Source: a virus (taxonomy: Duplodnaviria > Heunggongvirae > Uroviricota > Caudoviricetes). Taken from it: 11,795 nucleotides of DNA. The stretch's first letter is position 1, and every line of letters starts with the position of its first letter. A program made the translations under genes and the position numbers. Shown here one piece after another: positions 7,943 through 8,600 of this stretch. The notes beneath the pieces were generated by a model, which saw nothing but the letters and a program-made list of their open reading frames with translations, was not told the origin of the DNA and did not search any database. Location of the stretch: positions 1-11,795 of the IMG/VR virus record IMGVR_UViG_2728369560_000006. One strand, given 5' to 3'.

Positions 7943-7987
7943 TCTGGTCCCCATCAACAAGTAACTGATAACTTGAGGAGATGTGAA

Positions 7988-8194
7988 ATGCACAAAACAG
8001 AACCCAAAATCGTCGCGCCTGGCTACACAGATGAGGAAATTTATGAGTGGATGACAAAGAAGCTGGCAGCTATAAACCAGCTTCGTGAAGTGCTGTCTTA
8101 TCGACAGGAAACAATAGACTCCTTAAAAAAACTGGATCAGGAAATCACGGTTTTATCACAGGATGTTACTTTAGATATTGTGCAGACAAATTAG
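7988..8194 (+). CDS. hypothetical small protein (first ORF of the pL-side operon; predicted coiled-coil)
   Basis: 68 aa from the ATG at 7988 (the ORF track starts at TTG 7973). Strong SD GAGGAG about 8 nt upstream. Sequence rich in heptad-like Leu/Ile/Glu/Lys. Its 3' end overlaps the convergent 144-aa ORF by about 29 nt. No arginine-rich motif, so not an obvious N homolog. Confidence 0.45.
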   Translation: MHKTEPKIVAPGYTDEEIYEWMTKKLAAINQLREVLSYRQETIDSLKKLDQEITVLSQDVTLDIVQTN

Positions 8195-8600
8195 GATCCC
8201 ATTCATTTTCGTCAAAATCATCAAAGTGATGAATTTGTGATCTCCAGTCTCGATAATCTAAAAATTTCTGGGCGGTTACGCTTATTTTATCAAGTGTGAG
8301 TTCATCCTGAATTGAAAGAAGAAGTTCATCAAATTTCATCTCATTAATCTGTTTTGGCATCCAGTGATGCTTCATCAGAATAAGGTGAACCAGAGCCTTT
8401 TTCCCATTCAACTGATTATAGGGAGTGCCGAATTTCTTCCGGTGCTCATGTAAGACAAGGTCCAAAAGAGTAAGTAATGTTGCCCTTGATTCAACTTTGC
8501 TTATTTCGACTGATGACACTACCCCACTGATTTCAATGCCCCGATACTTTCCAACATTTTCACAGTGGGATTTGTACAGCGTATAGATATTACCGGACAT
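8166..8600 (-). CDS. hypothetical protein (AT-rich accessory gene in the immunity-adjacent slot)
   Basis: 144 aa, clean single ORF, visibly AT-rich relative to flanks, opposite in orientation to the pL-side genes. SD-like AAGGAAAAG upstream of the ATG. No transmembrane segment or known family recognised. Confidence 0.55.
   Translation of the reverse strand: MSGNIYTLYKSHCENVGKYRGIEISGVVSSVEISKVESRATLLTLLDLVLHEHRKKFGTPYNQLNGKKALVHLILMKHHWMPKQINEMKFDELLLSIQDELTLDKISVTAQKFLDYRDWRSQIHHFDDFDENEWDPNLSAQYLK

What the first reader, a model, noticed from the sequence alone, without database searches (positions are those of the whole stretch)
7973..8600. AT-rich convergent two-gene module in the immunity-adjacent slot between OL/pL and the conserved yfdR-like genes
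Directly beside the cI repressor, where lambda carries rexAB and P22 carries sieB, sit a 68-aa coiled-coil ORF (plus strand) and a 144-aa ORF (minus strand) that converge and overlap by about 29 nt at their 3' ends. Both are visibly AT-rich against a more GC-rich phage backbone, and the 144-aa gene opposes the pL operon, the typical signature of a horizontally acquired moron. Neither resembles a family I recognise. The convergent overlap would make pL transcription antisense to the 144-aa gene, so it would be expressed mainly in the lysogen. That is the expected behaviour of a superinfection-exclusion or abortive-infection determinant, and this is my top candidate for an undescribed prophage defence gene.
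Basis: partly seen in the sequence, partly recalled or inferred. Interest (0 to 1): 0.7.

Follow-up and report, generated by a model that had tools for sequence, protein, structure and literature searches.

The report
Swappable two-gene prophage accessory cassette
Next to the repressor of an E. coli lambdoid prophage sits a swappable two-gene cassette: a conserved 144-aa protein of unknown fold read against the phage's early lytic operon, and a small helical YdfC-like protein read with it. It is a good but untested candidate for a lysogen-expressed anti-phage or prophage-maintenance function.

Summary
A 68-aa ORF (7988-8194, +) and a 144-aa ORF (8166-8600, -) converge and overlap by exactly 29 nt, in a 39% GC segment just downstream of cI, OL and pL.

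Neither ORF is an orphan. The 144-aa protein belongs to the uncharacterised 'ECs1072 family' (NCBIfam NF033230, PHROG 5286). The 68-aa protein is a YdfC homologue (PHROG 1744), a single long helix.

- **Cassette:** segment 7948-8615 is a discrete unit. Phages with the same cI/cro and the same flanks carry at least five other cargos there, always on the strand opposing pL.
- **Pair conservation:** the pair recurs in three diverged lineages and two different slots (pL leader, Q-holin), always in the same polarity.
- **Wider family:** about 100 clusters, nearly always antisense to a lytic operon beside a lysis-lysogeny switch.
- **Selection:** the 144-aa gene is under strong purifying selection (22 synonymous, 3 nonsynonymous changes).
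- **Similarity:** no match to any known defence protein, Pfam domain or solved fold.

The moron and lysogen-expression reading is well supported. A defence function is plausible, because the placement matches sieB/ydaF in Rac, but it is untested.

Complementary arms enclose the slot, next to an rrn-like boxA on one side and an STnc100-like sRNA element on the other.

The parts
7668..7690 (+). Intrinsic terminator of the cI transcript
   Evidence: GGCCACCGAAAGGTGGCT followed by TTTTT; lies directly after the cI stop.
7703..7739 (.). OL operator repeats TTGCATATTTCGCAA and TTGCATATCTCGCAA. The inferred pL is TTGCAT-17-TATCTT at about 7725-7753.
   Evidence: Direct-repeat family D1, with a third copy at OR (6921-6935). 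The promoter is inferred by analogy with lambda and falls below the scan threshold.
7910..7929 (-). Hairpin that acts as an intrinsic terminator for minus-strand transcripts (T-tract at 7909-7904). It lies in the conserved left flank of the slot.
   Evidence: AAGCGTCCTGTAGGGCGCTT followed by TTTTTG on the minus strand. It is conserved in phages with other cargos.
7930..7942 (+). boxA-like element AGCTCTTTAACAA. It matches the rrn boxA consensus TGCTCTTTAACAA (recalled from own knowledge) at 12 of 13 positions. It lies in the pL leader, after the hairpin.
   Evidence: Read from the sequence. Part of the conserved left flank found in at least 120 viral contigs. Function is inferred.
7941..7960 (+). 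Left arm of the long-range inverted repeat that encloses the cargo.
   Evidence: Inverted repeats I9 and I10. Duplex energy with the right arm is -24.9 kcal/mol against -8.5 +/- 2.9 for shuffles. Complementarity is kept in 6 cargo types.
7948..8615 (.). Exchangeable cassette (668 bp, 39% GC) holding both ORFs.
   Evidence: Homology to RM13745 ends at 7947 and resumes at 8616. Alternative cargos are listed.
7988..8194 (+). 68-aa YdfC-family protein, a single long helix and the first ORF of the pL operon.
   Evidence: PHROG 1744 at 6e-35. 39% identical to YdfC. AF2 helix 15-67 at pLDDT 87. hhalign to the sb50-type partners gives Prob 87.6%, E 3.5e-6.
8059..8084 (-). Terminator-like hairpin for the 144-aa gene transcript, embedded in the 68-aa coding sequence (codons for KKLAAINQL).
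   Evidence: Equivalent hairpins sit at the same helix of the partner ORF in ST64B and Klebsiella phage KPP5665-2.
8166..8600 (-). 144-aa ECs1072-family protein: soluble, all-helical, with no recognisable fold.
8166..8194 (.). 29-nt antisense overlap of the two ORFs' 3' ends.
   Evidence: The same 29-nt overlap is seen in the diverged pair of L205.
8617..8664 (+). Right arm TTGTTGGGGATAACCAGATT (8617-8636) and a second copy of its core (8646-8664). Both lie in the conserved right flank, immediately upstream of the 144-aa start on the minus strand.
8711..8934 (+). STnc100/PasD-like sRNA element, divergent from the 144-aa gene. It is annotated in RefSeq as a frameshifted hypothetical protein, or as YmfH in e14.
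   Evidence: Rfam RF02076 at 43.4 bits against a gathering score of 47, E 7.9e-7. Full-score STnc100 hits (65-108 bits) lie next to family members in Klebsiella phage KPP5665-2 (L003) and in uncultured viral contigs L101, L105 and L127. The region is present in 2784 of 5426 E. coli genomes.

Best explanation
Segment 7948-8615 is a mobile two-gene accessory cassette in a dedicated moron slot of the pL leader of a CPS-53/SfIV/e14-like lambdoid prophage.

Shown:
- The slot has conserved flanks and interchangeable cargos, and the cargo gene always lies on the strand opposing pL.
- The cargo here is a strongly constrained 144-aa ECs1072-family protein, convergent with and overlapping a YdfC-like 68-aa helix protein that is the first ORF of the pL operon.
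- This pair has co-diverged in three lineages and sits in two different phage slots, always with the small gene co-oriented with the lytic promoter and the large gene against it.
- The large gene's terminator hairpin lies inside the small gene.

Inferred:
- In the lysogen pL is repressed, so the 144-aa gene is transcribed and the 68-aa gene is silent.
- On induction, antiterminated pL transcription collides with and pairs against the 144-aa mRNA (an excludon), shutting it off while producing the 68-aa protein.

Most likely function (inference):
- The 144-aa protein is a lysogen-phase effector that blocks superinfecting phages by exclusion or abortive infection.
- The 68-aa protein, together with the convergent transcription, is the prophage's own off-switch or antidote, so that its lytic cycle is not harmed.

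My confidence is about 0.8 for the architecture and expression logic, and 0.4 for the whole statement including the anti-phage role.
For: - **Cassette boundaries and slot variability:**. Of 120 viral contigs with the same left flank, 69 carry this pair, 21 or more carry a coiled-coil/Zn-ribbon gene, and others carry two membrane proteins, an LprI-like secreted protein, or a third diverged pair.
- **Family placement in phage contexts:** the family gene is antisense to a lytic operon next to a switch, or next to Q, in every phage context seen.
  - pL slot: window and L089.
  - Q-holin slot: ST64B, about 70 uncultured viral contigs related to the Klebsiella phages, E. coli and Shimwellia.
  - Downstream of cro.
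  - P2/186-like early operons.
- **Pair co-divergence:** L205 is 35% (large gene) and 36% (small gene) identical to the window pair. For the ST64B group the large gene is 29% identical, and the small genes match by hhalign at Prob 87.6%. The pair is intact in nearly all of 170 loci.
- **Purifying selection:** 22 synonymous to 3 nonsynonymous changes in the 144-aa gene, against 10 to 15 in the 68-aa gene.
- **Terminator inside the partner ORF in three lineages:**
- **Same architecture for a known exclusion gene:** in Rac, racR is followed by ydaF, which converges on sieB with a 4-nt overlap. sieB-ydaF and the e14 pair ymfI-ymfJ are both listed as convergent excludons from RNA-seq (PMC12288877).
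- **e14 analogue:** the pL-proximal gene ymfJ is induced late in SOS by log2 4.8, while the antisense ymfI changes by at most 2.0 (PMC11002266).
- **Lysogen expression of the namesake:** ECs1072 gave a signal on arrays of an uninduced O157 Sakai culture (PMC2241611).
- **Known hotspot:** the cI-N region is a known hotspot that holds rexAB and bstA (PMC8585504).
Against: - There is no phenotype. There is no similarity to any defence protein in PADLOC v2, any Pfam family, any PDB sequence or any fold.
- None of the alternative cargos in the slot is a recognised defence gene either, so guilt by association is weak.
- No sigma-70 promoter was found for the 144-aa gene.
- The partner is not universal. 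YdfC occurs without the family gene in Qin, Evi and PPompW. The family gene occurs without a detectable YdfC-like partner in L085, L089, L182 and L183. One member lies in a non-phage chromosomal context.
- The 68-aa ORF is only weakly constrained.
Confidence: 0.4

Rival explanations
1. The two ORFs are not a functional unit. The 68-aa gene is an ordinary early pL-operon gene (YdfC-like), and only the 144-aa gene is the moron. The overlap exists simply because the moron's terminator was placed in the upstream gene.
For: YdfC occurs alone in the dicBF operon and in phages Evi and PPompW. Family members converge on unrelated partners: a 207-aa ORF (called as 200 aa) in L089, 129 aa in L182, 148 aa in L180. 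Some have no partner at all, as in L085 and L183. Other cargos in the same slot are single genes.
Against: The cassette boundary at 7947/7948 includes the 68-aa gene with the cargo. The pair recurs in three lineages and in two unrelated slots with co-diverged sequences. A weak YdfC-like motif also appears in a partner ORF at the cro-downstream slot (E 0.006).
Confidence: 0.25
2. The cassette is a lysis-lysogeny or prophage-maintenance module. The 144-aa protein, or simply its convergent transcription, damps leaky pL, pR or pR' expression and stabilises lysogeny. The target is the phage's own development, not incoming phages.
For: Family genes sit within one or two genes of the switch or of Q, and always oppose the lytic operon, in lambdoid and P2/186-like phages alike. 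The arrangement is excludon-like.
Against: The slot is dispensable and holds unrelated cargos, or nothing, in phages with the same immunity region. Strong protein-level constraint argues that the protein matters, not just the transcription. One member is chromosomal and far from any phage switch.
Confidence: 0.2
3. The cassette is a toxin-antitoxin-like addiction module. One product is toxic and the other neutralises it, either as protein or through the antisense overlap, which stabilises the prophage.
For: The module is compact, mobile and has two genes with an antisense overlap. It neighbours HicAB in Shimwellia. The small partner evolves fast.
Against: Convergent, mutually exclusive expression is the opposite of the co-expression needed for type II systems. 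No toxin or antitoxin domain was found. The overlap is short and there is no separate antisense sRNA gene. In the lysogen the presumed antidote would be off.
Confidence: 0.1
4. The 144-aa protein is a lysogenic-conversion factor that changes host physiology, such as stress response, virulence or metabolism, rather than phage susceptibility.
For: It is a soluble cytoplasmic protein of unknown fold. The family namesake changes expression at a growth transition in O157 Sakai. It is adjacent to the STnc100/PasD sRNA family, which is described as base-pairing with sets of mRNA targets.
Against: There is no domain suggesting any host pathway. The strict anti-lytic-operon polarity and immunity-adjacent placement are more typical of exclusion or abortive-infection genes such as sieB, rexAB and bstA.
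Confidence: 0.15

Closest known systems
sieB / ydaF of the Rac prophage (and sieB of lambda and P22)
   Same: The gene sits inside the pL operon on the opposite strand, convergent with and overlapping the preceding small pL gene (Rac). It is listed as a convergent excludon. From own knowledge: sieB is expressed in the lysogen, and P22 has a built-in self-protection product, Esc.
   Different: SieB is a membrane protein of a named family. The 144-aa protein has no Pfam hit (the SieB family included), GRAVY -0.47, and a soluble helical model. There is no sequence or fold similarity. YdaF was not compared with the 68-aa protein.
RexAB (lambda) and BstA/aba (BTP1): immunity-region abortive-infection systems
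   Same: They occupy the mosaic hotspot around cI and N of lambdoid phages, are accessory, and are active in lysogens. BstA has a cognate self-immunity element (PMC8585504).
   Different: Those genes lie downstream of cI, on the cI strand, and share its promoter. This cassette lies beyond pL on the opposite strand. There is no homology.
ymfJ / ymfI of prophage e14 (E. coli K-12)
   Same: Identical architecture: the repressor is followed by the pL-proximal ymfJ, which converges on antisense ymfI with a 63-nt overlap, followed by the STnc100-like 'ymfH' region (89% identical to window 8670-9045), then xis and int. It is an RNA-seq-supported excludon.
   Different: There is no detectable sequence similarity between either protein pair. 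e14 lacks the flanking arms.
YdfC of the Qin dicBF operon
   Same: The 68-aa protein is a homologue (39% identity). Both are promoter-proximal small proteins of the repressor-controlled early-left operon, and both are followed by an sRNA element: DicF in Qin, STnc100-like here.
   Different: In Qin, Evi and PPompW no ECs1072-family gene opposes ydfC. The function of YdfC is unknown (PMC5069750).
ECs1072 family (NCBIfam NF033230, PHROG 5286)
   Same: The 144-aa protein is a full-length member.
   Different: The family is only a label of the 'hypoth_equivalog' type. No function, structure or genomic logic has been described in the libraries or papers searched.

Membership tests
ECs1072 family phage-associated protein (NCBIfam NF033230; PHROG 5286) | Full-length HMM match above the curated cut-off | tested here: met
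   157.8 bits against a cut-off of 70, residues 4-144. PHROG 5286 E 1.5e-90, residues 1-144 of 144.
YdfC family (PHROG 1744) | Sequence homology over the full length, and a promoter-proximal position in the early-left operon | tested here: met
   PHROG 1744 E 6e-35. BLASTP to YdfC gives 39% identity, E 3e-16. It is the first ORF after OL/pL.
SieB superinfection exclusion | Sequence membership of the SieB family | tested here: not met
   No Pfam, NCBIfam or PADLOC SieB hit for the 144-aa protein.
SieB superinfection exclusion | Integral membrane protein | tested here: not met
   GRAVY -0.47 and pI 6.4. The AF2 model is a soluble helical domain.
SieB superinfection exclusion | Gene antisense to the pL operon and convergent with the preceding pL gene | tested here: met
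   Window. Rac sieB/ydaF for comparison.
SieB superinfection exclusion | Aborts or excludes superinfecting phage in a lysogen | not testable with these tools
   Needs plaque assays.
RexAB-type or BstA-type immunity-region abortive infection | Located downstream of cI on the cI strand and sharing the repressor promoter; RexA/RexB or BstA (KilA-N) homology | tested here: not met
   The cI transcript ends at the terminator 7668-7690. The gene is on the other strand, beyond pL. No homology.
Known anti-phage defence systems (PADLOC-DB v2.0.0) | HMM match to any component | tested here: not met
   No hits for either protein. Among 73 family members there were only four single-member hits, with E of at least 0.01.
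Type II toxin-antitoxin | Co-transcribed adjacent genes with a recognisable toxin or antitoxin domain | tested here: not met
   The genes are convergent, not co-transcribed. No TA domains.
Excludon (convergent genes with overlapping transcripts) | Convergent genes whose transcripts overlap at the 3' ends | tested here: inconclusive
   The ORFs overlap by 29 nt, and the minus-strand terminators lie 82-260 nt beyond the 144-aa stop, inside or beyond the 68-aa ORF. The transcripts themselves were not observed. The e14 and Rac analogues are RNA-seq-supported.
STnc100 sRNA (Rfam RF02076), for the adjacent element 8711-8934 | Covariance-model score at or above the gathering threshold | tested here: not met
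   43.4 bits against 47. Relatives next to other family members score 65-108 bits. STnc100 and PasD are reported as related, easily confused families (bioRxiv 10.64898/2026.05.13.724894).

The most novel reading that the evidence does not exclude
ECs1072/YdfC may be a previously unrecognised, widespread two-component prophage immunity system. A soluble effector with a new fold would be expressed only in lysogens. Its cognate lytic-phase antidote would be encoded convergently, so that the prophage's own induction switches the system off by transcriptional collision plus a neutralising helix protein.

The system is housed in a purpose-built 'moron socket'. The socket appears to supply the cargo's terminator and probably its promoter (no promoter was found). 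An rrn-like boxA sits next to a long-range RNA stem that loops the cargo out of the pL transcript.
Probability: 0.3. Interest if true: 0.75.

Novelty: new variant of a known kind. Interest (0 to 1): 0.55.

Why it matters
If the 144-aa protein is an anti-phage effector, it would add a defence family with an unrecognised fold. The full region is present in about 7% of complete E. coli genomes (398 of 5426). Relatives occur in Salmonella, Klebsiella, Citrobacter, Hafnia and Shimwellia, and in P2/186-like early-operon contexts.

It would also be a clean natural example of how a prophage avoids autoimmunity, through convergent transcription plus an antidote.

Independently of function, the slot architecture explains how lambdoid phages swap lysogen-expressed cargo without disturbing the pL operon. 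That architecture comprises conserved flanks, a terminator, boxA, complementary arms and an adjacent sRNA. It also gives a simple rule for mining further candidates: a minus-strand gene between these flanks.

Tried and rejected
- **Genome-contig scans.** One call errored and the other returned nothing.
- **Promoter for the 144-aa gene.** No sigma-70 match was found on the minus strand of 8600-8800 (plus manual reading). No LexA box was seen by eye.
- **pL leader fold.** Not more stable than shuffles, z = 0.18.
- **e14 YmfI and YmfJ.** No homology to the window pair.
- **Partners in L180 and L182.** Not significantly YdfC-like. The L177 partner shows only a weak motif match.
- **Literature.** Searches for ECs1072, the WP accessions and the PHROG ids found no functional study.

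Full report
**What the window is.** It is the early and immunity region of an E. coli lambdoid prophage, 100% identical over 7650-9120 to a prophage of strain LH09-a integrated next to yejO/narP. The gene order is:
- a Q antiterminator, DUF968, KilA-N, RusA, a methylase, PerC/yfdN, replication genes, ymfL and a cro-like gene, all on the minus strand (the pR operon);
- cI (6956-7648, +; HTH plus S24 peptidase);
- the cI terminator (7668-7690);
- two operator repeats (7703-7739, with a third copy at OR);
- then the plus-strand pL operon, running through yfdR-like, DUF551, xis-like and integrase genes.

**Observation.** It is correct. The 68-aa ORF (ATG 7988 to stop 8194, +) and the 144-aa ORF (8600 to 8166, -) converge and overlap by 29 nt, and both are annotated CDSs in RefSeq. 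The segment is 39% GC against 48% for the window and 52.5% for the pR operon, although cI is itself 42%.

Both ORFs are real genes. Across 149 copies and 36 haplotypes, the 144-aa ORF has 22 synonymous and only 3 nonsynonymous polymorphisms. The 68-aa ORF has 10 and 15, at twice the site density.

**Identity.** Neither is an orphan.
- The 144-aa protein is a full-length member of NCBIfam NF033230, 'ECs1072 family phage-associated protein' (157.8 bits against a cut-off of 70), and of PHROG 5286. A profile search of 1.8 billion representatives finds about 100 clusters, nearly all single-domain proteins of roughly 140-175 aa.
- The 68-aa protein is PHROG 1744 and is 39% identical to YdfC of the Qin dicBF operon. 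AlphaFold gives a single helix spanning residues 15-67.

**It is a discrete cassette in a variable slot.** Phage RM13745 has the same cro and a near-identical cI. It is 99% identical to the window up to 7947 and 97% identical from 8616, but carries a 171-aa minus-strand coiled-coil/Zn-ribbon gene in between. Other relatives have nothing there, or a plus-strand ORF, or the e14 pair ymfJ/ymfI.

A scan for the left flank found 120 viral contigs. Of these, 69 carry this pair and 21 or more carry the Zn-ribbon gene. The rest carry two kinds of membrane protein, an LprI-like secreted protein, or a third, diverged YdfC-like/ECs1072-like pair. Every cargo gene lies on the strand opposing pL. None of the alternatives matches a known defence family.

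The conserved flanks provide several elements:
- a minus-strand intrinsic terminator (7929 to 7910);
- an rrn-like boxA (7930-7942);
- the right-hand repeats (8617-8664);
- an STnc100/PasD-like sRNA element (8711-8934).

**The pair is an old unit.**
- In L205, which uses the same slot, the two proteins are 35% and 36% identical to the window pair, and again overlap by 29 nt.
- In Salmonella ST64B, the Klebsiella phages (with about 70 related viral contigs), an E. coli prophage and Shimwellia, a 29%-identical family member sits in the Q-holin slot. There it is again convergent with and overlapping a small protein with the motif 'QPYFFNPGM..QLEDWL..EKAALEERL'. That protein aligns to the YdfC group by hhalign at Prob 87.6%, E 3.5e-6.
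- In all three lineages the family gene's terminator hairpin is embedded in the same helix of the partner's coding sequence.
- More distant members lie antisense to the pR operon just after cro (an uncalled convergent ORF there has a weak YdfC-like motif), or antisense in the early operon of P2/186-like phages after cox/apl.

Exceptions exist. Some members have unrelated partners or none, and one is chromosomal. YdfC also occurs without the family gene.

**Mechanism.** The shown facts are the polarity rule, the convergent overlap, the embedded terminator, the cassette mobility and the selection pattern.

The inference runs as follows. With pL (or pR') silent in the lysogen, the 144-aa gene is expressed. 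On induction, antiterminated lytic transcription reads through it antisense and makes the YdfC-like protein.

Support comes from analogues:
- The e14 pair ymfI-ymfJ and Rac sieB-ydaF are RNA-seq-defined convergent excludons.
- ymfJ is induced late in SOS while ymfI changes much less.
- In Rac, the known exclusion gene sieB has exactly this placement.
- The cI-N region is a recognised hotspot holding rexAB and bstA, the latter with self-immunity.

I therefore favour a lysogen-phase effector with a lytic-phase off-switch or antidote, most likely directed against superinfecting phages. The defence role itself rests only on position and logic. No promoter was identified, and there is no homology or phenotype.

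**Side finding.** The cargo is enclosed by complementary arms (7941-7960 and 8617-8636). Predicted duplexes are -24.9 to -31.0 kcal/mol in six cargo types, against -8.5 +/- 2.9 for shuffles. The inner arm ends differ between cargos yet stay paired. The pL-sense RNA duplex is more stable than the antisense one in 6 of 6 types, because of G.U pairs. With boxA immediately upstream, this resembles the rrn leader plus processing stem. It suggests that the pL transcript loops out, and perhaps excises, the antisense cargo. This is unproven.

**Verdict.** The moron-cassette interpretation is supported and sharpened. 'Unrecognised families' is corrected, since both families are catalogued but uncharacterised. 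The defence function is plausible but untested. In novelty terms, this is a new variant of a known kind: a sieB-like antisense moron, here a conserved convergent pair in a structured socket.

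Noticed in passing
window 7941-7960 and 8617-8636 (second copy 8646-8664); also L186, L192, L194, L197, L205: About 20-25-bp complementary arms enclose the moron slot whatever the cargo. Duplex energy is -25 to -31 kcal/mol against about -8.5 for shuffles. The inner ends differ between cargo types but stay complementary. 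The pL-sense RNA duplex is more stable than the antisense one in 6 of 6 types, because of G.U pairs. This could be an RNase III or processing stem in the pL transcript, or a 5'-3' clamp of the cargo mRNA.
   Followed up: partly
window 7910-7942: A hairpin is followed by AGCTCTTTAACAA, which matches the rrn boxA consensus at 12 of 13 positions. It lies in the pL leader of a phage with no recognisable N gene. This suggests host-factor (Nus) antitermination of the pL operon. The same hairpin is a good minus-strand terminator.
   Followed up: partly
window 8711-8934 (+), broader conserved block 8670-9045: A GC-rich stretch with no ORF matches the STnc100 sRNA model just below threshold (43.4 bits against 47). 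RefSeq annotates it as a frameshifted hypothetical protein, or as 'YmfH' in e14. It occurs in 2784 of 5426 complete E. coli genomes. Full-score STnc100 copies lie next to ECs1072-family genes in the Q-holin slot of Klebsiella phage KPP5665-2 and related viral contigs. The protein annotation is probably wrong.
   Followed up: partly
window 120-689 (+), runs off the left end: A very AT-rich (30% GC) C-terminal part of a KAP-family NTPase lies between Q and the lysis genes. It is read against the late operon and matches PADLOC candidate system PDC-S20 (E 1.5e-36). This is a second moron and defence candidate in the classical Q-holin slot.
   Followed up: partly
L092 1969-2484 (-), and L194, L197, L200, L204, L210, L301: Alternative cargos occupy the same slot, all antisense to pL and all uncharacterised. 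They are a 147-171-aa coiled-coil plus double CxxC zinc-ribbon protein, 150-166-aa and 130-aa membrane proteins, and a 163-aa secreted LprI-like protein. None hits PADLOC.
   Followed up: partly
L004 (E. coli K-12 e14) 2872-3459: ymfJ (+) and ymfI (-) have the same convergent, overlapping (63 nt), repressor-adjacent architecture, followed by the same STnc100-like block. They have no sequence similarity to the window pair. They are listed as an RNA-seq excludon.
   Followed up: yes
window about 8191-8205; L002 about 3645-3715: The C-terminal 'EWDP' motif of the family is encoded by the palindrome-like TGGGATCC(C)A. In the Q-slot lineage the partner ORF reads through the same site on the other strand and also encodes 'WDP'. 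In the window the partner stops just before it.
   Followed up: no
L095/L096 2742-3360 (phages Evi, PPompW): In ydfC-dicF phages, the gene after ydfC (135 aa, +) converges on and overlaps a 77-aa minus-strand ORF. The first 70 or so residues of the convergent partner in L089 (the 200-aa called gene) align with residues 63-127 of that 135-aa protein (BLASTP 2.6e-9). Antisense small genes in pL operons seem to be a recurrent theme.
   Followed up: no
window about 5280-5470 (inside the 313-aa replication-protein gene, minus strand): Short tandem repeats at the DNA level show up as repeated SDPSKSDASKS-type peptides and repetitive out-of-frame ORFs. They are probably ori iterons inside the initiator gene, as in lambda O. 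The Rfam mir-5880 hit at 5334-5408 is spurious.
   Followed up: no
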